NCBI GenBank assembly: GCA_044342535.1
Contig: JBIIPQ010000001.1
Location: 1 to 53,676 of the forward strand
Source: Burkholderiaceae bacterium
GTDB lineage: Bacteria > Pseudomonadota > Gammaproteobacteria > Burkholderiales > Burkholderiaceae_E
Length of the DNA stretch: 53,676 nt
Reading direction: 5' to 3'
In this document: in pieces, positions 21,190 to 35,700 of the stretch
How positions within the stretch are numbered: position 1 is the first letter of the stretch
Layout: the number at the start of each line of letters is the position of its first letter
The notes under the pieces: model-generated
Database searches by the model: none
What the model saw: the letters and a program-made list of their open reading frames with translations, nothing else
What the model was told of the DNA's origin: nothing
Translations under genes and position numbers: made by a program

Positions 21190-21465
21190 GGGCGAGTCCC
21201 GTCGATCGACGAGTGTGGGTGACGGTCCGTGACACGAGTGGGCATCGGTGGCTCTGCCGGAATCGGGTATTGATATCGGCCCCGTTGTACGGTCTCGGCG
21301 GACGCCATGGCGTCCCAAGCAGGCAAGAGGCTCGCCAATTCGGGTAAGTCCGACCCCCCGCCCACCGCCGATTCCCGCTCGACGGTCGCTTCGATCTCAC
21401 TCGCCGCGACAGGGCCGCCGCACCGCCCCTCTACAATCGCGCATGCCTTCGCCCGCCTGCCGACC

Positions 21466-24400
21466 ATGGTCATGACCCCCCCGCGATGGCAGGCCATCGC
21501 AGAGTCGGCGTTCCCCTGGGAACGCGACGCCCTCGAATGGCTGCGCAGTCTGTTGCCCGACCGCGACCCCTGGCATGCATGGGCCAACTTCGAGTTCATC
21601 GACGACCAGGGCAAGGTCAACGAGGTCGATGCGCTGATCCTTGCGCCGACCGGCCTGTACCTCGTCGAGATCAAGAGCCGGCCCGGTCGCGTGGACGGCG
21701 ACGCGCACAGCTGGACCTGGACCACAGACGGTCGCCTGATCACCGAGGACAACCCGCTGCTGCTTGCCAACCGCAAGTCCAAGCGGCTGATGAGCGTCCT
21801 CAGGCGTCAGCCGTCGGTGCAGAAAGCGCGTGTCAGGTTGCCCTGGTGCGAGCCGCTGATCTTCCTATCCGCCACCAGCTTGGACTGTCGGCTGGGGGGC
21901 AGCGCGCGTGCCGGCGTCTACCTGCGCGGCAAGCCCGGCGCGCTCGGCGACCCCGGTATCGTCGCCGCGCTGCTGGGCGACGCCCGCGCCGCGGCCGACC
22001 CGCCGCTGTCGCCGGTCGATGGCGCTCAGCACCGCGCGATGCTGCAGGGCATGACGCAGGCCGGCGTGCGCCAGTCGAACAAGCACCGCCGCGTCAACGA
22101 CTGGCAGCTCGGTGCGCTGATCGGCGAAGGCGAGCGCTGGCAGGACTGGGAAGGCCGGCACGCGACCCTCGAGAAGACCCGTCGTCGCATCCGCATCTAC
22201 CCGCACTCCGCGGCGGCCTCCCCCGAGGAGCGGGCAGCGATGTCGAAGGCGGCCGAGCGCGAGTTCCAGCTCCTCGAAGGCATCGAGCACCCCGGCATCC
22301 TGCGGATCCGCGAGTTCACCAGCTCCGAGCGCGGACCGGCGCTGATCTTCGACCATGACCCCGATGCGCTGCGCCTCGACCACCTGCTGCGAGAGCGCGG
22401 CGCGAAACTCTCGGTGGACCTGCGACTGCACATCGTCCGCAGTCTCGCGGAGGCGGTGAAGCACGCCCACGGAAGGCGGCTCTTCCACCGCGCGCTCTGC
22501 CCGCAGAACGTGCTGGTGTCGGATGCGGACACCGCCCAGCCGACGCTTCGGATCATGAACTGGCAGACCGGTGCACGTGACGCCGAGACCGGCGGCACCG
22601 ACCTTCGCACGCTCGGCACCGTGCACCCCGGCGAATACGTGGAGAACCCGGGCCTGGTCTATCTGGCGCCCGAGCTGCTCAAGCCCGACACGCCTCCGGG
22701 CCCCCATCTCGACGTGTTCTCGCTCGCCGCCATCGCGTATCACGTGTTCAGCGGCCAGCCGCCGGCCGGCACGCCGCTGGAGCTCTGGAACCGGCTCGTC
22801 GAGCAGGGCGGGCTGAAGGTCTCGGACGTGATGGACGGTGCGCCGCCTTCGCTGCAGGACCTGATCCAGTACGGCACCGCACCCGACATCCAGGCCCGCT
22901 ATCCGACCGTCGCAGAGTTCCTCGCCGAGCTGGACACGGTCGAGGAGGAGCTCACCCGACCCGACCCGGCGCAGACGGTCGACCCCTCGCGTGCCACGGT
23001 CGGTGATCGGCTGGACGGCGGCTTCGTGGTGGTGCGCCGCCTCGGGCGCGGCTCGTGCGCCGACGTGCTGCTGGTGCGGGTCGCAGATGATGCCCGGACT
23101 GCCGAGCAGCCGACACGCGAGAGGGTGCTCAAGGTCGCGATCGACGCCTCGCACGACGATCGTGTCGTGGCCGAAGGCGCGGTGCTGGCGTCGCTGCACC
23201 ATGCGAACGTGGTCGAGGTCACCGAGACGCTGCGCATCGCCGGACGCAGCGCGCTGCTGATGCACTACGCTGGCGAGTCGCTCGCGCGTCGGCTTCGGGA
23301 GGGGCCGCGGCTGTCGCTCGACCTGGTGCGCCGCTTCGGCGACGAGCTGATCGGCGTGGTCGATCACCTCGAGCAGCAGGGCGTGGCACACCGTGACATC
23401 AAGCCGGACAACATCGGCCTCACGCAGGTCGGCGAGCGCGGACGGCTGCAGCTGGTGCTGTTCGACTTCTCGCTGTCGCGCACGCCCGTCGACGCGATCA
23501 CCGCCGGCACACCCCCCTATCTCGACCCCTTCCTGCCGCTGCGCAAGCCGGCGCGCTGGGACCTGCAGGCCGAGCGCTTCGCGCTCGCGGTCACGCTCTA
23601 CGAGCTCGCCATCGGCGTGACCGGCGGCAGCACGCCGCGCTGGGGCGACGGCCGCAGCGCGCCCTATGCGATCGAGGACGAGGTCACGCTCGACCCGGAG
23701 CGCTTCGATCCGGCGCTGCGCGACGGGCTCGCCGCGTTCTTCGGCCGCGCGTTGCGCCGCGACCCGCGCGAGCGCTTCGACAACGCCGAGGAGATGCGCC
23801 GCGCCTGGAACCGGGTCTTCGACGACGCGACGCTGCAGCCCGCACCCGCCGACGCCTTCGATGCCCTCGCACGCGACGTCGCGGCCGACACGCGCGTGGG
23901 CGAGCTGGGCTACGGCGTCGAGGCGCTGAACGTGCTCGACGGCATGGGCATCGCCACGGTGGCCGACCTTCTGGCGGTCGACCGCATCCGGTTCCGCTAC
24001 CTGAAGGGCGTGGGCGACCGCATCCGCAAGGAGATCCGCCTCAAGGCCCGTCGGCTCGCGCAGCTCCGCCCCGACCTGACCCGCGGCCGCCCGACGCTGC
24101 ACGACGACGATGAGGGCGTGTCGTCGGGTCCGGCGAGCATCGACGAACTGGCTGCGCAGCTCGTGCCCCGCCGACCTGCGGGCGACGACCATCCGGAGGA
24201 CACCGCGCTCGCCACCTGGCTCGGCATCGACGAGGGCGATGCGGCCGCACCATGGCCCACGCCCGGCGACGCGGCACGCGCCGGCGGCATCGCGCGCCCG
24301 ATCTTCGCCGACACGCTCGCGCGTGCTCGGGAGCGCTGGCTGAAGTCGTCCGCGCTCGTCACCGTACGCGACGAGCTGATGGCGCTGCTCGCCGCGCACG

Positions 24401-25686
24401 GCGGCGTGATGACCGCGCCCGAGGCCGCGCAGGCGCTGCTCTCGCGCCGCGGCAGCACCGAGCGCGACGAGTCGATCCGGATGCGGCTGGCGAACGGTGT
24501 GGTCCGTGCCTGCGTGGAGTCGGAGGCCGCACGCGGCGTGCAGCGCTTCTCGGGCTTCGACGACGGTCGGCTGGCGCTGCTCGCCGCATCGGTCGAGGCG
24601 GCCGACCATGCGCGCCGCCTCGGCATCGAGGCCGATGCGATCGCAGCCGCCGACCCGTTGCAGTCGCCCGCCCGCGCCCAGGAGCTGCTGGAGGCGGTGA
24701 GCCGGCCCGAGGGCGTGGCGGCGCTGCCGGCCACGCGGCTGATGCGGCTGGCGGTCGCGGCGTCGGGCCGTGCCGCGCTGTCCAGCAGACTTGAGATCTA
24801 TCCGCGCGCCATGTCCGCGCTGCAAGCGCTTCGCCATTCGCTCGGTGCGCTGGCCGGCGTGCGGCGGCTCACCGCGGCCCAGGTGATCGAGCGTGTGCGA
24901 GGTCGTTACCCTCAGGCCGAGCCGCTGCCCGATCGGCCCGCGCTCGACGCGCTGATGCACGCGGCAGGTGCCGACCTTCACTGGCGCGAGGACGATGGCG
25001 ACGGGCCGGCCTATCACCCGGCCGGCGCGCAGGTCGGAGCCTCCGTCGGGCGCAGCACGCTGCTCTCGCGCCTGCCCACGCGCAGCGTGCTCGCCGGAGA
25101 CGCCGACAGCGAGCCGCTGCTCGTGGCGCGTCGATTCGAGGAGCGGCTCGCGCACTCGGTGTGGCAGGGCGGCTTCCTCGCGCTGACCGTGCCGCCGCGC
25201 GAGGCGCGTGCGGCGCAAGGCGAACTGCTGCGCCGCTTCGACCTGCAGCGCACGAGCCTGGACGCGTTGCTGCTGCGCGCGCTGCGCGAGCGGGCCGACG
25301 CGCGGCGCGTCGACTGGACGGTCGTGCTGCGCGCAGACAGCGCCGCGCCCGGCAGCGTCGACCACAGCCGCCTGCTGCAACTCGCGCGCCAGGCCGGCCA
25401 GCTCGCCATCGAGCGGCTGCTCGCATCGCCGCGGCCGCTCCTCCTGACCGATCCCGGCCTGCTCGGCCGCTGGCAGCTTACCGACCTGATCGATCCGCTG
25501 CGTGACGGCGCCGGCCGGCCCGGCGCGCTGCCGCGGTGCTGGCTGCTCGTGCCTATGGTGGCCAACGCGCTGCCGTCCATCGACGGCGTGCCGGTGCCCG
25601 TGCTCGGTGCCTCCCAGTGGGCGCGCATCCCGGCTGCCTGGATCGCCAACCGTCACCGGGCCGGTGCGCCCGTTCCGCAGGCCTGA
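21466..25686 (+). CDS. pglW: PglW: NERD-domain / tandem protein-kinase-domain BREX type 2 protein
   Basis: NERD-like N-terminus (EVDALILAPTGLYLVEIKSRPG). First kinase-like domain carries HRALCPQN (22486-22509). Second domain carries VLKVAI, HRDIKPDN (23389-23412), DFS and TPPYLDPF. A long C-terminal region follows. The start is ATG 21466 or 21472. Confidence 0.85.
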   Translation: MVMTPPRWQAIAESAFPWERDALEWLRSLLPDRDPWHAWANFEFIDDQGKVNEVDALILAPTGLYLVEIKSRPGRVDGDAHSWTWTTDGRLITEDNPLLLANRKSKRLMSVLRRQPSVQKARVRLPWCEPLIFLSATSLDCRLGGSARAGVYLRGKPGALGDPGIVAALLGDARAAADPPLSPVDGAQHRAMLQGMTQAGVRQSNKHRRVNDWQLGALIGEGERWQDWEGRHATLEKTRRRIRIYPHSAAASPEERAAMSKAAEREFQLLEGIEHPGILRIREFTSSERGPALIFDHDPDALRLDHLLRERGAKLSVDLRLHIVRSLAEAVKHAHGRRLFHRALCPQNVLVSDADTAQPTLRIMNWQTGARDAETGGTDLRTLGTVHPGEYVENPGLVYLAPELLKPDTPPGPHLDVFSLAAIAYHVFSGQPPAGTPLELWNRLVEQGGLKVSDVMDGAPPSLQDLIQYGTAPDIQARYPTVAEFLAELDTVEEELTRPDPAQTVDPSRATVGDRLDGGFVVVRRLGRGSCADVLLVRVADDARTAEQPTRERVLKVAIDASHDDRVVAEGAVLASLHHANVVEVTETLRIAGRSALLMHYAGESLARRLREGPRLSLDLVRRFGDELIGVVDHLEQQGVAHRDIKPDNIGLTQVGERGRLQLVLFDFSLSRTPVDAITAGTPPYLDPFLPLRKPARWDLQAERFALAVTLYELAIGVTGGSTPRWGDGRSAPYAIEDEVTLDPERFDPALRDGLAAFFGRALRRDPRERFDNAEEMRRAWNRVFDDATLQPAPADAFDALARDVAADTRVGELGYGVEALNVLDGMGIATVADLLAVDRIRFRYLKGVGDRIRKEIRLKARRLAQLRPDLTRGRPTLHDDDEGVSSGPASIDELAAQLVPRRPAGDDHPEDTALATWLGIDEGDAAAPWPTPGDAARAGGIARPIFADTLARARERWLKSSALVTVRDELMALLAAHGGVMTAPEAAQALLSRRGSTERDESIRMRLANGVVRACVESEAARGVQRFSGFDDGRLALLAASVEAADHARRLGIEADAIAAADPLQSPARAQELLEAVSRPEGVAALPATRLMRLAVAASGRAALSSRLEIYPRAMSALQALRHSLGALAGVRRLTAAQVIERVRGRYPQAEPLPDRPALDALMHAAGADLHWREDDGDGPAYHPAGAQVGASVGRSTLLSRLPTRSVLAGDADSEPLLVARRFEERLAHSVWQGGFLALTVPPREARAAQGELLRRFDLQRTSLDALLLRALRERADARRVDWTVVLRADSAAPGSVDHSRLLQLARQAGQLAIERLLASPRPLLLTDPGLLGRWQLTDLIDPLRDGAGRPGALPRCWLLVPMVANALPSIDGVPVPVLGASQWARIPAAWIANRHRAGAPVPQA

Positions 25687-25690
25687 CCCG

Positions 25691-28600
25691 ATGATCGATT
25701 CCCGCCGCCTGCTCGCCGACCTGCAGGGCTGGATCCGCCGGCTCGAGCCGGACCTGCGCGAGCGTGTCGCGGCCGATGCGGCGCTCGATGTCGCGTTGTG
25801 CGCCGAGTGGGACGACGCGCGCGCAGCCGGGCGCACCGGCGACACCTTCGAGACGTGGGTCGACGCCGTGCTCACGCAGGCGGCCGTGCACTGGCTGCTC
25901 GGCTGCGTGTTCGTGCGCTTCATCGAGGACAACGGGCTGGTCGAGCGGCCGTGGCTTTCCGGGCCCGGCGAGCGCCACGCGCTTGCGCAGGATCGTCACG
26001 AACGTTACTTCCGTGAGCATCCGGTGCTGTCCGACCGCGACTACCTGCTCGCCTGCTTCACGGACGTCGCCGCGCTGCCCGGGCTGCAGGCACTGTTCGA
26101 TTCGGCGCACAACCCGGTCTTCCGGCTCGGCATCTCGGGCGATGCCGCGATGGCGCTGCTCGCGTTCTGGCGCCGCGTCGACCCCGACACCGGCACGCTG
26201 GTGCACGACTTCACCGACCCGACCTGGGGCACTCGCTTCCTCGGCGACCTGTACCAGGACCTGTCCGAGTCCACCCGCAAGCGCTATGCGCTGCTGCAGA
26301 CGCCGGACTTCATCGAGTCCTTCATTCTCGACCGAACCCTCGCGCCGGCGATCGCCGAGTTCGGCTACCGCGAGGTCCGGCTGATCGACCCCACCTGCGG
26401 GTCCGGTCACTTCCTGCTCGGCGCGTTCGCGCGGCTGCTCGACCTCTGGTCGCGCAACGAGCCGGCCCGCCCGCGCCGCGACCTCGTGCAGCGCGCGCTC
26501 GACGGAGTGTTCGGCGTCGACCTGAACCCATTCGCGGTCGCGATCGCGCGCTTCCGGCTGCTGGTGGAGGCGCTACGCGCCAGCGGCGTCGAGCGGCTGG
26601 CCGCAGCGCCCGACTTCGAGCTGCACCTCGCGGTGGGTGACAGCCTGCTGCACGGCCAGCGCGCCGGCATGAAGGACACTGCGTCGCTGCTCGACGAGCC
26701 GCAGGCCTATGCCGGCACCGGGCTCGAGCATGCGTATGCGGTGGAGGACCTCGACGAGGTCAGGCGGATCCTCGGGCAGCGGTATCACGCGGTGGTGGGG
26801 AACCCGCCGTACATCGTGGTGAGGGATTCGGCGCTGAATGCGGCGTATCGAAGCCGCTTCGAGAGCTGCCACATGAAGTACTCGCTCGGAGTGCCGTTCA
26901 CGGAACTGTTCTTCGACCTGGCGCTGCCGGGCGACGAGGGGCCCGCCGGGCATGTTGGATTGATCACCGCGAACTCGTTCATGAAGCGCGAGTTCGGGTC
27001 GAAGCTGATCGAGAAGGTGCTGCCGAGCCTGGACCTCACGCATGTGATCGACACGTCGGGCGCCTATATTCCGGGGCACGGTACGCCGACGGTGATTCTA
27101 TTCGGGCGCAACCGGCTGCCGGCCGGTGACTCGGTTCGGACGGCCATGGGGATTAAAGGTGAGCCGGGGTCGCCGGAGGATCCGGCTCAGGGGCTTGTAT
27201 GGTGCGCAATTGTTACTCAGATAGACCGAACAGGGAGCGAGAGCGAATTCGTTAGTGTTGCTGACACGAAGCGGACAACGTTTGCTAAGCATCCATGGAG
27301 CATCGGCGGTGGCGGCGCGGTCGATTTGAAGGAAGCGGTTGAAGAGGGGCGGCCTCTCCTAAAGTCTGAAATAGCTGGTGCAGGATTCTCAGCAATTACG
27401 GGCGAAGACGAAGTCTTTGCAATGCCTCGGGGGTTGGTTGGTCGGTTGGGAATCAATTCGAGGCTTTTCGTGTTGGGTGACGAGGTTAGGGATTGGGCAA
27501 TCTCGCCGTCTGCGGCGGTAATTTTTCCATACGAGTCCGAAAACCTTTCTGCGCAACCGCCTGCGACAACTTCCGTGGCAGCGCGACACTTCTGGAGCAT
27601 GAGAACTAATCTGCGTAGTCGATTGATGTTCGGAAAATCTCCTGAGCAGGCTGGACTCAATTGGTGGGAAATGAGTTTTCTTTCTCGAGAGCGACTTCGA
27701 TCCCCTTTCTTAGTGACCTTCGCCGAAGTCGCTACCCACAACCACTTCGTCCTCGACCGCGGCGGCAAGGTCTTTAAGCAGACCGCGCCGGTAATCAAGC
27801 TGCCGGCGGGCGCGGACGAGGCGACGCATCTCGGGCTGCTGGGGCTGCTGAACTCTTCGGTGGGGTGTTTCTGGTTGAAGCAGGTGTGTCACAACAAAGG
27901 GGAAGGTGGTGGTACGCGTGTAGACGCCGGATTTTCGGCTTTGGGAGATGAAGCGTGGAAAAGTCATTTCGCATTTAATTCGACCAAAGTGGCGGAGTTC
28001 CCTCTTGCATCTGGTCGGCCCTACACGCTTGTTGCAATGCTTGATTCCGCATCGCATGAACTGCGCTCGTACTGCGAATCCCCCTTCGCCCCCGGCTTCG
28101 CCCCCGGCTACGCCCCCGATCGTCCGCGCCTCCTCGCCGCCGCTCGCCAGCACGCCGACACCCTCGCCCGGATGATCGCGCTCCAGGAAGAACTCGACTG
28201 GCAGTGCTACCGCCTCTACGGACTGCTCAACGCACCGCTCGAAGCCTCCGACCCCGACACCCTCCCGCCGCTGCGCCTGGGCGAGCGCGCGTTCGAGATC
28301 GTGCTCGCCCGCCGCATCGCCGCAGGTGACGAGACCACCTCCTGGTTCGAGCGCCACGGCTCGACGCCGATCACCGAGCTGCCCGCGCACTGGCCGCCCG
28401 ACTATCGCGCGCTCGTTGAGCGACGCATCGCCTGCATCGAGTCCGACCGCAACATCGGCCTTGTCGAGCGTCCCGAGCACAAGCGCCGCTGGAACCTGGA
28501 CCCCTTCGACGAGACCGTGCAGCGCGGCCTGCGGTTGTGGCTGCTCGATCGCCTGGAGTCCGAGCCCTACCGGCGCGGCGCGCCGCAGCTCACCACCGTC

Positions 28601-29332
28601 TCGCGGCTGGCCGACATCGCCCGGATGGATGCTGGGTTCATGCAGGTCGGCGAGCTCTACGCCGGTCATGCCGACTTCGACCCGGTCGCGCTCGTCGACG
28701 AGCTGGTCGCTTCGGAATCCGTCCCCTTCCTGCCGGTGCTGCGCTACGCCGAGTCCGGCCTGCGCAAGCGCGCGCAGTGGGAGGCCACCTGGGCGCTGCA
28801 GCGTCGTGAGGACCTGATCGATGCCTTCGAGTCCGACGCGCGCCGCCGCAAGGAGCGCAAGGACGAGGAGATCGGCGACATCCCGGTGCCGCCCAAGTAC
28901 CAGTCCAAGGACTTCCTGAAGACCGACTTCTGGCGCCTGCGCGGCGGGCTCGACGTGCCGAAGGAACGCTGGATCAGCTACCCCGGCTGCGAGTCCGGGG
29001 CCGACGCGAGCCGCGTGGTCGGCTGGGCGGGCTGGACCGCGCTGCAGCAGGCGCAGGCGCTGGCCGCCTGGTACCTCGACGCCCGCGAGCGCGAAGGCTG
29101 GCCCGTCGAGCGGCTGGTGCCGCTGCTGGCCGGGCTGCGCGAGCTGCTGCCCTGGCTGCTGCAATGGCACAACGCGATCGATCCTGAGTTCGGCCTGCGG
29201 CAGGGCGACTACTTCGTGTCCTTCGTGCAGGACGAGGCCCGGGCGCTGGGGACCACGGTCGATGCGCTCGCGGCCTGGCAGCCGCCGGCGCGCAGCGTGC
29301 GTCGCGGGCGGACCCGTGCGGCGGCGAAGTAG
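25691..29332 (+). CDS. pglX: PglX: BREX N6-adenine DNA methyltransferase / specificity subunit
   Basis: 1213 aa. SAM motif I IDPTCGSGHFLLGAF and catalytic motif IV VVGNPPYI (NPPY at 26801-26812). Positioned after pglW. Confidence 0.9.
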   Translation: MIDSRRLLADLQGWIRRLEPDLRERVAADAALDVALCAEWDDARAAGRTGDTFETWVDAVLTQAAVHWLLGCVFVRFIEDNGLVERPWLSGPGERHALAQDRHERYFREHPVLSDRDYLLACFTDVAALPGLQALFDSAHNPVFRLGISGDAAMALLAFWRRVDPDTGTLVHDFTDPTWGTRFLGDLYQDLSESTRKRYALLQTPDFIESFILDRTLAPAIAEFGYREVRLIDPTCGSGHFLLGAFARLLDLWSRNEPARPRRDLVQRALDGVFGVDLNPFAVAIARFRLLVEALRASGVERLAAAPDFELHLAVGDSLLHGQRAGMKDTASLLDEPQAYAGTGLEHAYAVEDLDEVRRILGQRYHAVVGNPPYIVVRDSALNAAYRSRFESCHMKYSLGVPFTELFFDLALPGDEGPAGHVGLITANSFMKREFGSKLIEKVLPSLDLTHVIDTSGAYIPGHGTPTVILFGRNRLPAGDSVRTAMGIKGEPGSPEDPAQGLVWCAIVTQIDRTGSESEFVSVADTKRTTFAKHPWSIGGGGAVDLKEAVEEGRPLLKSEIAGAGFSAITGEDEVFAMPRGLVGRLGINSRLFVLGDEVRDWAISPSAAVIFPYESENLSAQPPATTSVAARHFWSMRTNLRSRLMFGKSPEQAGLNWWEMSFLSRERLRSPFLVTFAEVATHNHFVLDRGGKVFKQTAPVIKLPAGADEATHLGLLGLLNSSVGCFWLKQVCHNKGEGGGTRVDAGFSALGDEAWKSHFAFNSTKVAEFPLASGRPYTLVAMLDSASHELRSYCESPFAPGFAPGYAPDRPRLLAAARQHADTLARMIALQEELDWQCYRLYGLLNAPLEASDPDTLPPLRLGERAFEIVLARRIAAGDETTSWFERHGSTPITELPAHWPPDYRALVERRIACIESDRNIGLVERPEHKRRWNLDPFDETVQRGLRLWLLDRLESEPYRRGAPQLTTVSRLADIARMDAGFMQVGELYAGHADFDPVALVDELVASESVPFLPVLRYAESGLRKRAQWEATWALQRREDLIDAFESDARRRKERKDEEIGDIPVPPKYQSKDFLKTDFWRLRGGLDVPKERWISYPGCESGADASRVVGWAGWTALQQAQALAAWYLDAREREGWPVERLVPLLAGLRELLPWLLQWHNAIDPEFGLRQGDYFVSFVQDEARALGTTVDALAAWQPPARSVRRGRTRAAAK
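28085..28120 (+). repeat. In-frame 12-bp tandem repeat x3 within pglX (FAPG FAPG YAPD)
   Basis: ttcgcccccggc ttcgcccccggc tacgcccccgat, lying exactly at the right edge of the low-GC block of pglX. Confidence 0.8.
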
Positions 29333-29404
29333 ATGGCGGCGCTGGCATCGGATGTCGCTCTGACGCCAGTCAGCGCCGCGACGTGTTAAAAAACGGCCCG
29401 ATTC

Positions 29405-29432
29405 TGAACATGTCCGGGCAGACGTGTACAAA
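29405..29432 (+). promoter_or_regulatory. Weak sigma70-like promoter candidate ahead of the nested cassette
   Basis: TGAACA, 16-nt spacer, TACAAA, within the AT-richer 128-nt spacer after pglX. Each hexamer matches consensus at only 4 of 6 positions. Confidence 0.2.
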
Positions 29433-29460
29433 GCGCTAACAAGTGGCGAGCTCCAGCCCC

Positions 29461-29907
29461 ATGACTCCCGTCTATGACGTCGATTACCACGCCAGCGCTA
29501 TCCGGCATCTCCGGGACGCGGAGTACCTGCACGCTGGGGGGTTTGCCCCGAACGCAGGGCAGCTCTACGGCTTCTGCGTTGAATGTGCTCTGAAGGCGGT
29601 TCTTGTGTCCTGCGGAGTCGCTCGGGACGCTTCCGGTAGCGTGACCCAAGGGAGTCGCTTCAAGGTGCACATGCCGAAGCTGGTCGACCAGATCACCGCC
29701 GACGTTCCTTTCGGCCCTGAAGGACGCCTTGCCGCAGGCTACGTTGCTCAGTTTCCAGAGATTGCAGACATGGACGATTGGAGCATCGATCATCGCTATT
29801 TCAAGGAGGCCGCATTGCCGGTGGCATCCATCGACCGCTGGCGTGTGGTGGCGACGCGGGTTCGTGGCCTGCTCGATACGCTGAAGCTGGACGGGGGTAT
29901 CGAATGA
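29461..29907 (+). CDS. Cassette gene A: small all-alpha protein, HEPN-like (tentative)
   Basis: ATG at 29461 (an alternative GTG is at 29443). AIRHLRDAEYLHAGGFAPNAGQLYGFCVECALKAVL resembles the first helical hairpin of classical HEPN domains (A.dL..A..ll..g....a..l..qa.E.aLKA.l). RDAEYLH fits Rx5H, and SIDHRY gives an HxY. The stop overlaps the start of gene B (ATGA). Confidence 0.45.
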   Translation: MTPVYDVDYHASAIRHLRDAEYLHAGGFAPNAGQLYGFCVECALKAVLVSCGVARDASGSVTQGSRFKVHMPKLVDQITADVPFGPEGRLAAGYVAQFPEIADMDDWSIDHRYFKEAALPVASIDRWRVVATRVRGLLDTLKLDGGIE

Positions 29908-31250
29908 AGCAAGTGCTGTTCGAAGATGCACTGCGGATTGCCATCGAGGCGGCATCCCAGCTCAGGTCGTCAGGTGGCCATGATGTTCGTCTGGTCAGGG
30001 ACATGGTGGGGCGGATTCGCTTCGTCTTGAATCTGCATCGCGACCGCATTTTTCCGGGTGACATTGCGTCCTTAGTCGATGCGACGAAAGTGCTCGGTCC
30101 CTATGCCGCGTCGCAGGCGGTACTGACGCGCGATGACTTTGCCGATGCCGACGCCGTATTCGCCGACCCCTCGTGGCATGCCACCTTCACGATTGCCAAA
30201 GGGGCAGATGGAGCGGTGACTTCGACCGTGCCGGTCATGGACCGACAGGTCACCGGGCAGGACTGGCTGCGTGGACATCTGCCTGCCGGAGAATCCAGGC
30301 GCGCCCACCGCGTCGTCTTCCACGGGCTCAAGGGAGGCGTGGGCCGCTCGACGAGCCTCGCGATGGTGGCTTACGGGCTGGCAAGAAGGAGCCGGCGGGT
30401 GCTGGTCGTCGACTTCGACCTGGAGTCCCCCGGTCTCTCGTCGCTTCTGCTCCCGGCCGAGCGGATGGCTTCGGTCGGGCTGGTCGACTGGTTCGTCGAA
30501 GATGCGGTAGGTCAAGGAGACGCGATCATCGATGACATGGTCTCGACGAGTCCGCTCGCCGATACGACGATCGGAGAAATCCGGGTAGCGGCCGCAGCCG
30601 GTCGCGACGATGCCGCCTACCTCGACAAGCTGTCGAGAGTGTATGGCGACCTGCCGGGACCGGCCGGTCCGCGGCGCTGCGCCGACCGCATGCTGGACAT
30701 CGTGGAGAAGCTCGAGGCGTCGGTGCGCCCCGATCTCATCCTGATCGACAGCCGCGCGGGGCTTCACGACCTCGCCGCCGCTGCCATCGTGAGGCTTGCG
30801 GATACCGCGTTGCTGTTCAGCACGGGAGGTGCGCAGAGTCAGGTCGGCTATCGCCAATTGTTCACGCACTGGCAGCGCAGGCCCGACGTGGCGCGTGAAG
30901 TCAGGGAGCGGCTCGCGATGGTGCGGGCGTTGCTGCCTGCAACGCAGCGGGAACGGATGGTCACGGCTTTCCGGCAGGACGCATACGAACTGTTTGCCGA
31001 AACCCTCTACGACGAATTGCCAGCCTGCGTGATGGGTGAAGAAACCGACGCTCCGGCAGGTTTCCATCCATCTCTCCAGGACGAAGCCGCGCCGCATTGG
31101 CCGATCCTCGTCGACTGGGACGAACGCTTTCAAGAGTTCGATCCTCGCGTCATGGTCTCTGGCGGAGGTATCGGCGACACCTTTGTCGACGCGACCTTCG
31201 GGGCCTTGATCGACTGGGTCGATACACGGACGCGGGGGGCGATGACATGA
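29904..31250 (+). CDS. Cassette gene B: ParA/MinD-class (SIMIBI) ATPase with KGGVGR variant Walker A and an unknown N-terminal domain of about 135 aa
   Basis: VVFHGLKGGVGRSTS (KGGVGRST at 30330-30353), VLVVDFDLESPG and LILIDSRAGLHD (MinD-like DxxxG switch II, 30735-30770). ATGA overlaps at both ends. Confidence 0.7.
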   Translation: MKQVLFEDALRIAIEAASQLRSSGGHDVRLVRDMVGRIRFVLNLHRDRIFPGDIASLVDATKVLGPYAASQAVLTRDDFADADAVFADPSWHATFTIAKGADGAVTSTVPVMDRQVTGQDWLRGHLPAGESRRAHRVVFHGLKGGVGRSTSLAMVAYGLARRSRRVLVVDFDLESPGLSSLLLPAERMASVGLVDWFVEDAVGQGDAIIDDMVSTSPLADTTIGEIRVAAAAGRDDAAYLDKLSRVYGDLPGPAGPRRCADRMLDIVEKLEASVRPDLILIDSRAGLHDLAAAAIVRLADTALLFSTGGAQSQVGYRQLFTHWQRRPDVAREVRERLAMVRALLPATQRERMVTAFRQDAYELFAETLYDELPACVMGEETDAPAGFHPSLQDEAAPHWPILVDWDERFQEFDPRVMVSGGGIGDTFVDATFGALIDWVDTRTRGAMT

Positions 31251-32707
31251 ACCCGTCCGCCATTCGGCAAGGCCTGCGGGCAGTGACCCGAGAGCAGGAT
31301 CAGGCCAGCGGGACCGCCTCGTCGGCGCCTGCCCAGATATACGTTCCGCCCAGCCACGCGCGCGCGCTCGATCCGAACGCGACGATCGTCGAAGGTATCC
31401 GGGGGGCAGGCAAGAGTTTCTGGTGTGCGCAACTCGCGTCGAGCGCGCACTTCGACTTCGTCGTGAATGCCTTCCCGGAAGCGAACCTCGGACCGAAGAT
31501 CAAGATGGTACGTGGATTCGGTCTCTGGCCGGGCGAGGCGCCAAGTCCGAGGGTCCTGGCGAGTCTGGTATCGAAGTTTCCGGCAGATTCCATATGGCGT
31601 GCCGTGTTGGCCGTGAACGCAGGCTTCCCAGGAGCGTTCGCACAGCTGACGCAGTGGCAGGAGCGGGTGCAATGGGTTCACTCGAATCCTGAGCAGTTCG
31701 ATGTGCTGCTCGACGAGGCCGATCGTGGCTTGTTCGAGCGTGGCGAGACGCTCGTGGTGCTGTTCGACGCGCTCGACCGGCTTGCCTCGGAGTGGGCGGG
31801 GGTGGTGCCGTTGGCGCGATCGCTGCTGCAGATTGCGCTGGAGGTCCGCGGCACGCGGCGAATTCGCTTCAAGGTGTTCGTGCGCCCCGACATGCTGGAG
31901 AACGCCGGCATCGTGAGCTTTCCCGATTTTTCCAAGCTGGTTGCGGGCAAGGCTTCACTTGAATGGCGAAGGGCCGACCTGTACGCGCTGCTCTACCAGG
32001 CCTTGGCCAATGCATGTGCCGCCCCTGGAGTGGATGACGCCGGAGGTGCGTTCAGGAGCGCAGTCGAAGCCGTTACGACCCTAAAGACCGAGCGGCGTGC
32101 GCAGGCTTGGACGCTGCCGAGCCGGTTGCGAACCGACGAGCGCCTGCAGGAGCGACTCTTCGAGAGCATGGCGGGTCCGGCAATGGGTGCCAACACGAAG
32201 CGGGGCAAGCCGTACTCCTGGCTCGTCAACCACTTGCTCGACGGGTTGAATCAGGTCAGTCCGCGAAGTTTCTTCGCTGCACTCCACGAAGCGGCGACCG
32301 GCACCGACGAGGTCTTCCCGCTGCCGCTCGACTACCGCGCCATCCAGGTCGGCGTACAGAAGGCGTCGCGTATCCGGGTCGCGGAGATGGAGGAAGACTA
32401 CGCGTGGGTCAAGACCGTGATGGAGCCGCTGCGCACGGCAATCACGGTACCGTGCGTCGTCCAGGATTTCGATCGGATCTGGAAGGAGGTTGATGTGTTC
32501 ACGCGTGTGCAAGGCAGGCCTGAAGGAAGCGATTTCGAAGGGACGCTTCCACCCTTCGGACTGTCTCGCAAGACGGCAGGCCTGCTGGACGATCTGGAGA
32601 AGATCGGCCTGATCCACAGGCTGAAGGATGGGCGCGTCCAGATGCCCGATGTCTATCGCATCGCATTCGGACTCGGGCGCCGCGGGGGCGTCAAGCCGCT
32701 CCAATGA
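31247..32707 (+). CDS. Cassette gene C: P-loop NTPase (STAND/AAA-like) with C-terminal winged-helix-like tail
   Basis: Walker A GIRGAGKS (31394-31417), Walker B LVVLFDALD (31751-31777), and C-terminal LLDDLEKIGLIHRLKDGRVQMPDVYRIAFGL. The start overlaps the stop of gene B. Confidence 0.6.
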   Translation: MNPSAIRQGLRAVTREQDQASGTASSAPAQIYVPPSHARALDPNATIVEGIRGAGKSFWCAQLASSAHFDFVVNAFPEANLGPKIKMVRGFGLWPGEAPSPRVLASLVSKFPADSIWRAVLAVNAGFPGAFAQLTQWQERVQWVHSNPEQFDVLLDEADRGLFERGETLVVLFDALDRLASEWAGVVPLARSLLQIALEVRGTRRIRFKVFVRPDMLENAGIVSFPDFSKLVAGKASLEWRRADLYALLYQALANACAAPGVDDAGGAFRSAVEAVTTLKTERRAQAWTLPSRLRTDERLQERLFESMAGPAMGANTKRGKPYSWLVNHLLDGLNQVSPRSFFAALHEAATGTDEVFPLPLDYRAIQVGVQKASRIRVAEMEEDYAWVKTVMEPLRTAITVPCVVQDFDRIWKEVDVFTRVQGRPEGSDFEGTLPPFGLSRKTAGLLDDLEKIGLIHRLKDGRVQMPDVYRIAFGLGRRGGVKPLQ

Positions 32708-32765
32708 ACCGCTTTACATCCCGTCCGGGCGGATCTGCCCGTGCAGTCGAACCGAGCGCCGCACG

Positions 32766-35700
32766 ATGACCCTGATCCGCGACCTGATCGACATCCCCGA
32801 GCGCGTCCACCAGGGCGACTTCGTCCTCAAGCTCTCCGAAGGGGTCGGCAACGCCGAGCGCACGCTCGCCGACTACGTGGTCACGCCGCAGCTCGTGCGC
32901 TGCTTCGAGGACGCGCTGGCCTTCGTGCGGCAGGCGGTCGAGGGGCGCAGCAGTCGGGCCGCCTACCTGCACGGCTCGTTCGGCTCGGGCAAGAGCCACT
33001 TCATGGCGGTGCTGAACCTGCTGCTGGCCGGCCATCCGGCGGCCCGCTCGCGCGCCGAGCTGGCGGACGTGGTGGCGCGCGGCAACGCCTGGACGCAGGA
33101 CCGGCGCTTCCTGCTGGTGCCCTACCACATGATCGGCGCGCGCGACATGGAGTCGGCCATCCTTGGGCAGTACGCCGAGGCGGTCCGCCGCCTGCACCCC
33201 GATGCGCCGGTGCCCGGCTTCTACCGTGCCGAGGGCCTGTTCGAGGACGCGAAGCGGCTGCGCGCGCAGATCGGCGACGAGCGCTTCTTCGCCGGCCTGA
33301 ACGACGGCGCGGCCGGCGCCGCCGACGACGGCTGGGGCGACCTGGGCGCGGGCTGGCAGGCGGACGCCTTCGAGGGCGCGATGCTCGAGCCGCCGGGCGG
33401 CGACGAGCGCGCACGCCTGGTCGGCGCACTGATCGGCACGTACTTCAGCGCCTACACGCAGGTCGCCGACGGCCGCGGCGAGTCCTTCGTCAACCTGGAT
33501 GACGGGCTGTCGATCCTGTCGCGCCATGCGAAGTCCCTCGGCTACGACGCGGTCATCCTGTTCCTCGACGAGCTGATCCTGTGGCTGGCGAGCCGCGCCG
33601 CCGACATGAGCTTCGTCGCCAGCGAAGGCACCAAGCTGGTCAAGCTGGTCGAGGCGGGCAACGCCGACCGGCCGATCCCGCTGGTGAGCTTCGTGGCCCG
33701 GCAGCGCGACCTGCGCGAGCTGGTCGGCGAGAACCTCGCGGGCTCGCTGCAGCTGCAGTTCGCCGACGTGCTGCGGCACTGGGAGGCGCGCTTCCACGTC
33801 ATCACGCTCGAAGACCGCAACCTGCCGGCGATCATCGAGAAGCGCGTGCTGCGCCCGCGCAGCGAAGCCGCACGCCAGGAGCTGGCCGCCGCGTTCGAGG
33901 AGTTCCAGGGCACGCGGCGCGAGGTGCTCGAGACGCTGCTGACCACGCAGGGCGACCGGGAGATGTTCCGCAAGGTCTACCCGTTCAGCCCGGCGCTGGT
34001 GACGACGCTGATCGCGGTGTCCTCGGCGCTGCAGCGCGAGCGCACGGCGCTCAAGCTGATGCTGCAGCTGCTGGTCGACCGGCGCGACGATCTCGCGCTC
34101 GGCCAGGTGATTCCGGTCGGTGACCTCTGGGACGTGATCGCCGACGGCGACGAGCCCTTCTCGGACGCGATGCGGATCCACTTCGACAACGCGCGCAGGC
34201 TGTATGCACAGAAGCTGCTGCCGCTGCTCGAGCGCCATCACGGCACGAGCTGGGACGACATCGGCCTGGGGCTGGCCGACCCGGCCAAGGCGGGTGCGCT
34301 GCGCAACGACGCACGGCTGGTCAAGACGCTGCTGCTGGCCGCGCTGGTGCCCGAGGTGGAGTCGCTCAAGGCGCTGACCGCGTCGCGCCTCACCTCGCTC
34401 AACCACGGCAGTTTCCGCTCGCCGATCCCGGGGCGCGAGGTGCAGACGGTGCTGAACCGCTGCCGTGCCTGGGCGGCCGAGGTCGGCGAGATCAAGATCG
34501 GCGACCAGGCGGTGAACCCGCTGATCTCGATCCAGGTCACTGGCGTGGACATCGAGCCGATCATCCGCGACGCGGAGTCGGTGGACAACCCGGGCAACCG
34601 GCGCCGCAAGATCCGCGAGCTGCTGCTCGCCGAGCTGGGCGTGGTCGACGAGTCCGCGCTGTTCACGCTGCATCCGTATTCGTGGCGGCACACCCGCCGC
34701 GAGGTAGAGGTGGTGTACGAGAACGTGCGCGAGATGAGCGACGAGCGCCTGCGGGGACGAGAGGACGGCTGGACGATCGTCGTCGACATCCCCTTCGACG
34801 ACGGCCGCTTCACGCCGATGGACGACCTTGCTCGCCTTGCGCGCTACCGCGGCATGCCGACCCGGACCCTGGTCTGGCTGCCGTCCTTCCTGTCCGAGCG
34901 CGCGTTGCGCGACCTCGGCCGTCTGGTGGTGCTCGACCACCTGCTCGCGGGTGCCGGCGAGCGCTTCGCCGAGCACGCCTCGCACTTGGCGGCGGTCGAC
35001 CGCGGGCCCGCGCTCGCGCTCGCTCGCAACCAGCGCGACCAGCTGCGCCAGCGGATGCTGCAGTACCTGCTGGCCGCCTACGGCGTGGCCGACGACTCGG
35101 CCGAGGGCATCGCCGAGCGGCTCGAGCCGCAGGACCAGTTCCGCTCGCTCGACACCACGCTCAAGCCGCGCCCGCCGGTGGGCGCGAGCCTGAAGGATGC
35201 CTTCGAGTCGCTACTCGACCAGCTCTTCGCCCACCAGTACCCCGGGCATCCACGCTTCGACGTCGAGATCAGGCCGGTGGTGCTCAAGCGGGTCTGGCAG
35301 GAGATCGAGCTCGCGCTGACCGATGCGGGCGGGCGCTCGCTGGTGGCCGAGAAGAGCGCACGCCAGACGGTGCGCTCGGTCGTCAATCCATTGAAGCTGG
35401 GCACGATGGGCGAGAACCACCTCGTGCTCGAGCCGCACTGGCGTTCGCATTTCCTGCAGATGCAGGCGCGCGACGGCGTGCCGATCACGGTCAGGCACTT
35501 GCGCGGCTGGATGAACGAGCCGCAGCCGATGGGGCTGCCCCCGGAGGTCGAGAACCTGGTGATCCTGACCTTCGCGGGCCAGACCAATCGCACGTTTTGG
35601 ATGAACGGCGGACCGGCCGTCGCGACCCTGGAGTCGATGCCCGACGCGATGGAGCTGCGCGAGCAGTCGCTGCCCCCGCGCGCCGAGTGGGATGAAGCCC

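What the first reader, a model, noticed from the sequence alone, without database searches (positions are those of the whole stretch)
27090..28120. pglX is a compositional mosaic: a roughly 1-kb low-GC block in the region expected to carry target recognition
Seen: within one uninterrupted ORF the composition changes abruptly. My hand count is 30/60 GC at 27241-27300, versus 44/60 at 25741-25800. High GC resumes near 28080.

The low-GC block covers roughly PglX residues 466-796, downstream of the catalytic NPPY (26801-26812). Its right edge coincides with three in-frame 12-bp tandem repeats (28085-28120, FAPG-FAPG-YAPD).

Established: PglX is the BREX specificity subunit, and its non-catalytic C-terminal part determines the recognised motif.

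Inference: the recognition module was replaced by recombination with a lower-GC donor, giving a specificity swap like TRD exchange in Type I/IIG restriction-modification enzymes. The repeat may be a recombination scar or a flexible linker.
Basis: partly seen in the sequence, partly recalled or inferred. Interest (0 to 1): 0.62.

Follow-up and report, generated by a model that had tools for sequence, protein, structure and literature searches.

The report
Swapped DNA-recognition cassettes in BREX-2 pglX
The low-GC stretch inside this phage-defence methyltransferase gene is real and marks its DNA-reading module, which recombination has exchanged between otherwise identical defence islands; this is a clear new example of a known way bacteria change which DNA motif they mark as self.

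Summary
Within pglX (25691-29332), GC falls from about 0.72 to 0.52-0.56, and GC3 from about 0.9 to about 0.45. The block lies in the lowest 0.09% of 1-kb windows of this 71.6%-GC genome.

It is two blocks, not one: 27053-27715 and 27902-28060. A 186-nt high-GC island of backbone sequence (27716-27901) separates them.

Two metagenomic relatives carry the same BREX-2 island. One has no differences from the window over the 10 kb downstream of pglX, and all 579 differences lie at 25635-29312. In the two blocks all three alleles are mutually unalignable, with third-position identity of 0.22-0.43.

- Block A rejects the backbone clade (AU p = 8e-8).
- A profile of the region matches the solved target-recognition domains of CamA and M.BseCI.
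- The pattern is family-wide. In 79 of 80 BREX-2 pglX genes the same region has lower GC3 than its flanks.
- Among 92 pairs with near-identical backbones, 77 differ in block A. Blocks A and B assort independently.

No donor was found, so "a lower-GC donor" is not shown. I found no shufflon, retroelement or slippage tract. Reads could not be checked.

Verdict: a new member of a known kind, of moderate interest.

The parts
25691..29332 (+). pglX, the BREX type 2 N6-adenine DNA methyltransferase (1213 aa). The reading frame is uninterrupted.
   Evidence: PADLOC PglX model PDLC02529 matches residues 1-1210 at 1649 bits. Pfam gives Eco57I at 273-455 and DUF7008 at 828-1207. Both relatives start with the same MIDSRRLL.
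26399..26407 (+). Motif I GSG (residues 237-239, in DPTCGSGHFLL), which binds S-adenosylmethionine.
   Evidence: These columns are invariant in the alignment of 20 homologues. This stretch also matches type 1 PglX/BrxX structures.
26801..26812 (+). Catalytic motif IV, NPPY (residues 371-374).
   Evidence: Direct translation.
26377..29312 (+). The tract that holds almost all differences between the window and locus L002.
   Evidence: Of the 579 differences, 575 lie at 26377-29312 and 4 lie at 25635-25978. There are 0 differences in 29333-39332.
27053..27715 (+). Low-GC block 1. It comprises the conserved end of the methyltransferase domain (codons 455-545) and hypervariable cassette A (codons 546-675).
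   Evidence: GC is 0.558. GC3 is 0.64 in codons 455-545 and 0.48 in cassette A, and third-position identity to the relatives is 0.43-0.45 and 0.32-0.37 respectively. The left breakpoint lies at about 27050-27068. The AU test rejects the backbone clade, p = 8e-8. Residues 543-675 align to the N-terminal part of the CamA recognition domain.
27716..27901 (+). Conserved high-GC island (codons 676-737: TFAEVATHNHFVLDRGGKV...LLGLLNSSVGCFWLKQVCHNKG). It is the core of the recognition domain and a recombination anchor.
   Evidence: About 6 synonymous differences from L001 in 186 nt, with GC3 0.85. Family conservation is 0.89. It aligns to CamA 457-509. The 24-nt window at 27728 is among the most nucleotide-conserved in the gene.
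27902..28060 (+). Low-GC block 2, hypervariable cassette B (codons 738-790).
   Evidence: GC is 0.516. GC3 is 0.40 and third-position identity to the relatives is 0.22-0.43. Tree end branches are 0.8-1.1, against 0.01-0.03 for the backbone. Across the family it assorts independently of cassette A.
28084..28120 (+). In-frame 12-bp tandem repeat (TTCGCCCCCGGC x2, then TACGCCCCCGAT; FAPG-FAPG-YAPD), in the linker before DUF7008.
   Evidence: Tandem Repeats Finder: period 12, 2.9 copies. It is a 4-codon insertion relative to L001 and L002. It is unique among 168 homologues, in a linker of variable length. It falls in a predicted loop between helices 765-786 and 798-829 of the model. Its GC is 0.73.
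28172..29311 (+). DUF7008 C-terminal domain (residues 828-1207), part of the backbone.
   Evidence: Pfam PF22654, E = 5e-154. It is 92-97% identical at the amino-acid level to the two relatives.
21307..42754 (+). The surrounding BREX type 2 island: pglW, pglX, the PDC-M28 cassette, pglY, pglZ, brxD and brxHI.
   Evidence: PADLOC matches for every gene. The island is absent from 60 related genomes. It is flanked by asd and a 2-hydroxyacid dehydrogenase, with no integrase, reverse transcriptase or tRNA nearby.

Best explanation
pglX is the methyltransferase and specificity subunit of a complete BREX type 2 (Pgl) island. Its target-recognition region, just after the catalytic domain, consists of two hypervariable cassettes. 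Cassette A is codons 546-675 and cassette B is codons 738-about 790. They flank a conserved core (codons 676-737).

In this lineage the cassettes were replaced by homologous recombination with other pglX alleles. The crossovers fall in segments that are conserved at the nucleotide level: the IPGHGTPT motif near 27067, the ATHNHF/NSSVGCFW island, and the start of DUF7008. The result is a third allele on an island that is otherwise identical to that of a sister strain.

In type 1 BREX the same subunit sets the motif for both host methylation and phage targeting. By analogy, the swap most probably changed the motif that this BREX system marks and defends.

- Shown: the mosaic, the breakpoints, the incongruence, the homology to recognition domains, and the family-wide pattern.
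- Inferred: the change of motif and the direction of transfer.
- Not resolved: why the cassettes are AT-rich.
For: 1. **Composition.** GC3 is about 0.9 in the flanks, 0.48 in cassette A and 0.40 in cassette B, with an island at 0.85. The block is at z = -4.6 against the genome.
2. **Nearest relatives.** P0002/L001 and P0003/L002 are 96-97% identical in residues 1-465 and 92-95% in 797-1213, but only 52-60% in 466-796. The nucleotide breakpoints are sharp.
3. **Synonymous sites.** Third-position identity is 0.85-0.91 in the flanks. It is 0.43-0.55 in codons 455-545, where the protein is conserved. It is 0.22-0.43 in the cassettes. The segments therefore have different ancestry. Faster protein evolution alone would not give this.
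4. **Window versus L002.** There are 0 differences in 10 kb downstream. All 579 differences lie within 25635-29312.
5. **Trees.** The backbone clade has support of 100. The block A tree places the three alleles in three different groups, and the AU test gives p = 8e-8.
6. **Recognition-domain identity.** A profile of residues 360-830 from 63 loci aligns window residues 543-732 to CamA 323-509 (E = 6e-10) and to M.BseCI 301-500 (E = 2e-3). The CamA recognition domain is residues 320-577 (PMC8187626). The full-length model matches CamA, M.BseCI, BrxX, PglX and MmeI.
7. **Family-wide pattern.**
   - Conservation is 0.38-0.48 at residues 551-675, 0.43-0.59 at 726-825 and 0.89 at 676-725.
   - Of 92 pairs with flanks more than 90% identical, 77 have block A below 50% identity. 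Eleven pairs differ in A only and 2 in B only.
   - Identity in block A is uncorrelated with identity in the N-terminal part (-0.02) or in block B (0.03), whereas the N- and C-terminal parts correlate at 0.82.
8. **Anchors.** The nucleotide-conserved windows at 27067 and 27728 coincide with the breakpoints.
Against: - No donor or closely related cassette was found among 5.8 billion proteins. The best match is 66%.
- Block B is too short to reject the backbone clade (AU p = 0.36).
- The mapping to a recognition domain rests on profile homology and an AlphaFold model. The segment-only model gave no PDB match, and Pfam has no family covering residues 455-830.
- The window comes from a 565-contig metagenome-assembled genome.
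- No methylome data exist for any of the three alleles.
Confidence: 0.85

Rival explanations
1. The swap is real, but the low GC does not come from a lower-GC donor. On this view cassettes circulate among hosts of similar GC and are AT-shifted for an intrinsic reason. One candidate reason: alleles too divergent to form heteroduplex escape GC-biased gene conversion, or selection on GC3, and drift toward the AT-biased mutational equilibrium. Another: they reside on AT-richer mobile elements.
For: - In 79 of 80 pglX genes the cassettes have lower GC3 than their own flanks. This includes hosts with flank GC3 of only 0.55-0.6.
- The regression of cassette GC3 on flank GC3 has slope 0.71 and intercept 0.02. 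The deficit is therefore proportional to host GC3, rather than converging on one pool value.
- Cassettes more than 60% identical occur only in backbones at least 66% identical in the N-terminal part, so exchange appears to be limited to related backbones.
- Cassettes that look vertically retained in Micromonospora have the smallest dips, 0.13-0.19.
Against: - The 80 loci were chosen by similarity to a GC-rich query, so low-GC hosts are under-sampled.
- GC1 is also lower in the cassettes (0.57-0.62 against 0.73-0.75 in the flanks), although the share of FYMINK residues rises only slightly (0.17-0.19 against 0.13-0.15). An origin in AT-richer genomes could explain this equally well.
- No polarised substitution spectra were computed.
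Confidence: 0.3
2. The mosaic, or this particular pairing of cassettes A and B, is an assembly chimera. Co-occurring pglX alleles in the metagenome would have been joined at shared conserved segments such as the 186-nt island.
For: The window belongs to a 565-contig metagenome-assembled genome. Near-clonal islands with different pglX alleles do exist, and that is the situation in which assemblers can switch paths.
Against: - Blocks A and B match neither L001 nor L002, so the window carries a third allele.
- The same trough is present in isolate and closed genomes, including Azospirillum sp. B2RO_4, Accumulibacter NC_013194, Cupriavidus laharis, Thauera terpenica and Micromonospora.
- The frame is intact through all four junctions.
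- The left junction lies where the alleles are only 70-80% identical, so long shared k-mers are scarce there.
Confidence: 0.05
3. The blocks diverged in place under strong diversifying selection, without any recombination.
For: The recognition domain is the most variable part of PglX/BrxX in type 1 BREX as well (PMC11842806). Block B alone does not reject the backbone clade.
Against: - Synonymous sites are saturated in codons 455-545, where the protein is conserved, while the adjacent flanks differ at only about 10% of third positions.
- GC3 shifts by 0.4.
- There are zero substitutions in the 10 kb next to pglX between the window and L002.
- The AU test gives p = 8e-8 for block A.
Confidence: 0.03
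4. The variation is programmed. Candidates are a shufflon with silent cassettes and a recombinase (as in some hsdS and Lacticaseibacillus pglX loci), a diversity-generating retroelement, or phase variation by repeat slippage.
For: Phase variation of pglX has been reported (discussed in PMC11341690). There is also a 12-bp tandem repeat at the edge of the block.
Against: - The genome holds no second copy of the module.
- No inverted repeats bracket the block.
- No recombinase, integrase or reverse transcriptase lies among the neighbouring genes.
- pglX has no homopolymer of 6 or more bases.
- The repeat is in frame, so a change in copy number would not switch the gene off.
Confidence: 0.02

Closest known systems
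Type III modA/mod DNA-recognition-domain alleles of Neisseria and Haemophilus (Gawthorne et al. 2012, PMC3311624)
   Same: Conserved 5' and 3' parts flank a hypervariable recognition domain. That domain is exchanged en bloc by horizontal transfer and recombination. The modA12 domain has significantly lower GC than its flanks.
   Different: Those are beta-class Type III Mod proteins with a central recognition domain and phase-variable repeats. Here the gene is a gamma-class BREX-2 PglX, the domain follows the catalytic part, there are two cassettes, and there is no slippage tract.
Type 1 BREX PglX/BrxX (E. coli HS, PDB 9EWZ, PMC11842806; Salmonella, PDB 8C45, PMC11341690)
   Same: The domain order is the same: helical N-terminal domain, gamma-class methyltransferase, recognition domain, C-terminal domain. 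The recognition domain is the most variable part, has two alpha/beta subdomains, and sets the motif for both methylation and defence. The whole-protein model matches these structures.
   Different: Sequence similarity is limited to about 70 residues around motif I. The C-terminal domain here is DUF7008. The partner genes are pglW, brxD and brxHI. No motif is known for this BREX-2 clade.
Type I HsdS reassortment of TRD1 and TRD2 (my own recollection: Fuller-Pace and Murray; Gann et al. 1987)
   Same: Two variable segments are separated and flanked by conserved segments. The conserved segments serve as crossover sites, so the variable segments reassort independently.
   Different: HsdS is a separate subunit with two duplicated recognition domains that read a bipartite motif. 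Here blocks A and B are unequal parts of, or adjoin, a single TaqI/CamA-like recognition domain within the methyltransferase polypeptide.
CamA (PDB 7LNI) and M.BseCI (PDB 7QW5), gamma-class adenine methyltransferases with a C-terminal recognition domain
   Same: These are the best fold matches (E = 7e-19). They are the only solved proteins whose recognition domain aligns by sequence profile to residues 543-732. CamA base-contact residues 346, 349, 425, 438, 439 and 441 map into block A, and 472 and 473 map into the island.
   Different: They are stand-alone enzymes of about 580 residues, an orphan methyltransferase and a Type II methyltransferase. They lack the N-terminal bundle and DUF7008 and are not part of BREX. 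Identity is about 15%.

Membership tests
BREX type 2 (Pgl) PglX methyltransferase | Full-length match to the PglX family model | tested here: met
   PADLOC PDLC02529 matches residues 1-1210 to profile positions 1-1186 of 1189, at 1649.5 bits. NCBI names for homologues read 'BREX-2 system adenine-specific DNA-methyltransferase PglX'.
BREX type 2 (Pgl) PglX methyltransferase | Gamma-class N6-adenine methyltransferase motifs I (GxG) and IV (NPPY) | tested here: met
   GSG at residues 237-239 and NPPY at 371-374. Both are invariant in the family alignment.
BREX type 2 (Pgl) PglX methyltransferase | Operon context with pglW, pglY, pglZ, brxD and brxHI | tested here: met
   All five are present as full-length PADLOC matches at 21307-42754.
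BREX type 2 (Pgl) PglX methyltransferase | Site-specific adenine methylation and phage exclusion | not testable with these tools
   No methylome or phenotype data are available.
Allelic exchange of a target-recognition domain (as in hsdS, Type III mod, Type IIG and type 1 pglX) | Near-identical flanks with an unalignable central segment among close relatives | tested here: met
   Flank nucleotide identity is 92-100%, against 42-57% in the blocks. There are 0 differences in the 10 kb beyond pglX against L002.
Allelic exchange of a target-recognition domain (as in hsdS, Type III mod, Type IIG and type 1 pglX) | The phylogeny of the variable segment is incongruent with the backbone | tested here: met
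   For block A the AU test gives p = 8e-8 against a backbone clade with support of 100. Block B is inconclusive (p = 0.36, 72 columns).
Allelic exchange of a target-recognition domain (as in hsdS, Type III mod, Type IIG and type 1 pglX) | The variable segment is the DNA-recognition domain | tested here: met
   Profile homology of residues 543-732 to the CamA and M.BseCI recognition domains. The position after the catalytic domain matches BrxX. No experimental contacts are known.
Allelic exchange of a target-recognition domain (as in hsdS, Type III mod, Type IIG and type 1 pglX) | Different alleles methylate different motifs | not testable with these tools
   This needs SMRT or nanopore methylomes, or expression of the alleles.
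Programmed specificity switching (shufflon, retroelement, phase variation) | Silent cassette, inverted repeats with a recombinase, a template repeat with a reverse transcriptase, or a frameshifting repeat | tested here: not met
   The assembly holds a single copy of the module. No bracketing inverted repeats were found, and no recombinase or reverse transcriptase is nearby. There is no homopolymer of 6 or more bases.

The most novel reading that the evidence does not exclude
BREX-2 PglX may read its motif with a bipartite, combinatorially reassorting region. On this reading cassettes A and B contact different positions of the motif, and they are exchanged independently at three nucleotide-conserved anchors. 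This would give a single-chain counterpart of HsdS TRD1/TRD2 shuffling.

Second, the universal AT shift of these cassettes, which is proportional to host GC3, might not be a trace of low-GC donors. It could arise because alleles too divergent to pair escape GC-biased gene conversion or selection on GC3. Recognition-domain cassettes would then be natural markers of what maintains high GC in bacteria.
Probability: 0.2. Interest if true: 0.6.

Novelty: new member of a known kind. Interest (0 to 1): 0.38.

Why it matters
This gives a clean natural experiment for BREX type 2, whose recognition motifs and specificity determinants are essentially uncharacterised. Three alleles sit on near-identical islands. 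One pair has no differences outside pglX apart from one at 25635 in the end of pglW, and those two alleles differ mainly in two defined cassettes.

Expressing the alleles, together with A-only and B-only chimeras, would map which residues read which motif positions. That would provide a basis for re-targeting BREX-2. The family-wide GC3 trough is also a practical marker for locating specificity modules in unannotated defence methyltransferases.

Tried and rejected
- **Donor search.** A search restricted to residues 520-810 found nothing above 66% identity. The 80 named genomes gave nothing above 44-45% in block A or block B.
- **Segment-only model.** The AlphaFold model of residues 455-830 had a mean pLDDT of 68 and no PDB match with E below 2.
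- **Pfam.** Scans of the segment and of each block at E up to 10 gave nothing meaningful.
- **Whole-protein searches of the PDB.** Sequence and profile searches aligned only motif I to type 1 PglX. A profile built from the segment was needed to reach the CamA recognition domain.
- **Own genome.** A search for a second copy of the module found none.
- **Related genomes.** Sixty relatives were searched for the gene and none has it. The spread of cassettes within the genus could therefore not be studied.
- **Data caveat.** In the first family table the L001 and L002 rows picked the wrong gene, because pglY is the longer reading frame. Those rows were excluded afterwards.
- **Host organism.** I did not identify it.
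Full report
**1. The observation**

There are 30/60 GC at 27241-27300 and 44/60 at 25741-25800. NPPY lies at 26801-26812, and FAPG-FAPG-YAPD is encoded at 28085-28120. Tandem Repeats Finder reports the repeat at 28084-28118, with period 12 and 2.9 copies.

GC in 300-nt windows falls from 0.74-0.77 to 0.53-0.58 between about 27000 and 28100. It is the lowest 1-kb stretch of the window. Against the whole 4.75-Mb assembly (71.6% GC), the interval 27090-28089 (GC 0.563) lies at z = -4.6, in the lowest 0.09% of 1-kb windows.

GC3 shows that the block is not continuous:
- about 0.9 up to codon 450;
- 0.64 in codons 455-545;
- 0.48 in codons 546-675;
- back to 0.85 in codons 676-737;
- 0.40 in codons 738-790;
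- about 0.9 from codon 791 onward.

**2. Context**

The gene is the PglX of a complete BREX type 2 (Pgl) island. The island holds PglW, PglX, a nested PDC-M28 candidate cassette, PglY, PglZ, BrxD and BrxHI, all as full-length PADLOC matches. Pfam places Eco57I-type methyltransferase at residues 273-455 and DUF7008 at 828-1207. No family covers the region between them.

None of 60 related genomes, 25 of them in the same genus, carries this pglX. The island is therefore accessory. It lies between asd and a 2-hydroxyacid dehydrogenase, with no integrase, reverse transcriptase or tRNA nearby.

**3. Comparison with the nearest relatives**

Two metagenomic proteins stand out among 8000 homologues. 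They are P0002 (locus L001) and P0003 (locus L002). Both are 96-97% identical to the window in residues 1-465 and 92-95% in residues 797-1213, but only 52-60% in residues 466-796. Both loci have the same gene order.

Codon-level alignment gives sharp junctions against L001:
- near-identity up to about 27050-27068;
- no recognisable similarity through 27715;
- 186 nt (27716-27901) with about 6 synonymous differences;
- no similarity again up to about 28060;
- identity resuming by about 28120.

Third-position identity is 0.85-0.91 in the flanks and 0.90 in the island (window against L001). It is 0.43-0.55 in codons 455-545, although the protein there is 73-80% conserved. It is 0.22-0.43 in the two cassettes. 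Saturated synonymous sites under a conserved protein, next to flanks that differ at about 10% of third positions, indicate different ancestry. Faster protein evolution alone would not produce this.

All three alleles differ from one another in the cassettes, and each has its own left breakpoint. These lie near codon 455 in the window, codon 526 in L001 and codon 421 in L002. These are therefore independent events.

The strongest single result concerns L002. The window and L002 have no differences in the 10,000 nt from 29333 to 39332, which covers PDC-M28, pglY and pglZ. All 579 differences lie between 25635 and 29312, and 575 of them between 26377 and 29312. Two essentially clonal islands therefore differ mainly in the central and 3' part of pglX.

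**4. Phylogeny**

On the backbone (residues 1-450 plus 811-1213) the three sequences form a clade with support of 100 and branches of 0.01-0.03.

On block A they fall into three different groups. The window sits nearest P0004. P0002 lies inside a 10-sequence group supported at 97, nearest P0158. P0003 groups with P0077, P0084 and P0088 at support of 100. The AU test rejects their monophyly (p = 8e-8).

Block B has only 72 usable columns and does not reject the clade (p = 0.36). Its end branches are nevertheless 0.8-1.1.

**5. The region is the target-recognition domain**

- Sequence searches of the PDB with the whole protein reach type 1 PglX/BrxX only around motif I.
- The AlphaFold model of residues 14-1213 (mean pLDDT 78.8) matches gamma-class adenine methyltransferases that have a C-terminal recognition domain. 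The hits are CamA (E = 7e-19), M.BseCI, E. coli BrxX, Salmonella PglX and MmeI.
- A profile built from residues 360-830 of 63 loci aligns window residues 543-732 to CamA 323-509 (E = 6e-10) and to M.BseCI 301-500 (E = 2e-3).
- The CamA recognition domain is residues 320-577, with base contacts at 346, 349, 425, 438, 439, 441, 472, 473, 517 and 521 (PMC8187626).
- Carried through the alignment, the first six contacts map to window residues 566, 569, 645, 662, 663 and 665, all in block A. Residues 472 and 473 map to 698 and 699 in the island. Residues 517 and 521 lie just past the aligned part, where block B starts. This mapping is an inference from a modest alignment.
- In E. coli BrxX the recognition domain (651-837) follows the methyltransferase domain, has two alpha/beta subdomains, is the most variable part, and reads the first four base pairs (PMC11842806). 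Salmonella PglX is similar (PMC11341690).

**6. The pattern holds across the family**

- Among 168 full-length homologues, conservation is 0.38-0.48 at residues 551-675 and 0.43-0.59 at 726-825, but 0.89 at 676-725.
- Pairwise identity in the N- and C-terminal parts correlates at 0.82. Identity in block A correlates with neither (-0.02 and -0.08), nor with block B (0.03).
- Among 92 pairs with flanks more than 90% identical, 77 have block A below 50% and 27 have block B below 50%. Eleven pairs differ in A only and 2 in B only. The two cassettes therefore assort independently.
- Block A falls into 49 clusters at 60% identity.
- In 80 pglX genes (the window plus 79 loci from named genomes of many phyla, isolates and closed genomes included), the cassettes have lower GC3 than their own flanks in 79 (mean -0.21, Wilcoxon p = 8e-15). 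The trough runs from about codon 450 to 825, with partial recovery over the island. The window has the deepest dip, -0.41.
- Cassette GC3 regresses on flank GC3 with slope 0.71 and intercept 0.02.
- The most nucleotide-conserved 24-nt windows around the region lie at 26976, 27067 and 27728. The last two coincide with the window's breakpoints.

**7.

Replacement by recombination and identity as a recognition domain are supported. Three points change:
- The block is two cassettes around a backbone island.
- The low GC is a general property of these cassettes, so it cannot date or source this particular import. No donor was found: the best match is 66%.
- The most recent event visible here is an exchange of alleles between closely related pglX genes (window against L002). 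It is not a direct graft from a distant low-GC genome.

The tandem repeat is GC-rich and unique among 168 homologues. It is a 4-codon insertion in a linker of variable length, and it is predicted to be a loop between two long helices. It looks like a local duplication in a tolerant linker. Whether it is connected to the neighbouring junction cannot be decided.

**8. Rival explanations**

- Divergence in place is contradicted by the synonymous-site pattern and the AU test.
- Programmed switching has no support. There is no second copy, no bracketing inverted repeats, no recombinase or reverse transcriptase, and no homopolymer of 6 or more bases.
It is unlikely for the mosaic as such, since the same trough occurs in isolate genomes and the window's cassettes match neither sister allele. 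A switch between co-occurring alleles inside the 186-nt island remains conceivable.
- The cause of the AT shift is open. Import from AT-richer genomes and intrinsic drift of cassettes that escape GC-favouring forces both remain possible. The proportional regression leans toward the second, but the sample is biased toward GC-rich hosts.

**9. Relation to what is known**

En bloc exchange of recognition domains between conserved flanks, with the domain lower in GC than the flanks, is documented for Type III modA (PMC3311624). It is classical for Type I hsdS (my own recollection). For type 1 BREX, the recognition domain is known to be the variable, specificity-setting part. A 2026 survey states that type 1 and type 2 methyltransferases share their architecture but diverge in the recognition domain (PMC12839542).

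Earlier notes of this scan report the same AT-rich swappable cassette in pglX of other genomes. These are unchecked AI notes. They agree with the family-wide dip that I measured independently.

The finding is therefore a new, unusually clean member of a known kind. The added details are the two-cassette architecture, the independent assortment, and the near-clonal allele pair in BREX type 2.

Noticed in passing
window 29333-32765: The PDC-M28 candidate defence cassette nested between pglX and pglY is also lower in GC (0.59-0.68) than the BREX genes around it. It is identical to L002 and 90-99% identical to L001. Another agent has already followed it up.
   Followed up: partly
window 36310-36384 (3' part of pglY): L001 lacks 75 nt (25 codons, in frame) that are present in the window and in L002. 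The stretch lies in a Pro/Ser/Ala-rich part near the C-terminus of PglY.
   Followed up: partly
L001:1-290 and L002:1-154: Both metagenomic contigs that carry the sister alleles end inside the 3' end of pglW, just upstream of pglX. This may reflect assembly breaks caused by strain variation in pglW.
   Followed up: no
L038 and L053 (both from OZ251573.1, Spirochaetia MAG): One genome carries two BREX-2 pglX copies. They are 94-95% identical in backbone and block A but only 72% identical in block B.
   Followed up: no
L008 (CAZPLH010000005.1, labelled Candidatus Saccharibacteria): This pglX is 80% identical in the N-terminal part, and 76% in block A, to a Comamonadaceae gene. The contig is probably mis-binned, or was transferred recently.
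   Followed up: no
window 20600-42754: The whole BREX-2 island is absent from 60 related genomes, including 25 of the same genus. Yet its backbone GC (0.70-0.76) matches the host.
   Followed up: partly
genome contigs C101:6000-7750, C422:1750-2500, C265:3000-3750: These are the only other 1-kb stretches of the assembly as GC-poor as the pglX block (0.53-0.57). I did not examine them. C101 could be an rRNA operon.
   Followed up: no
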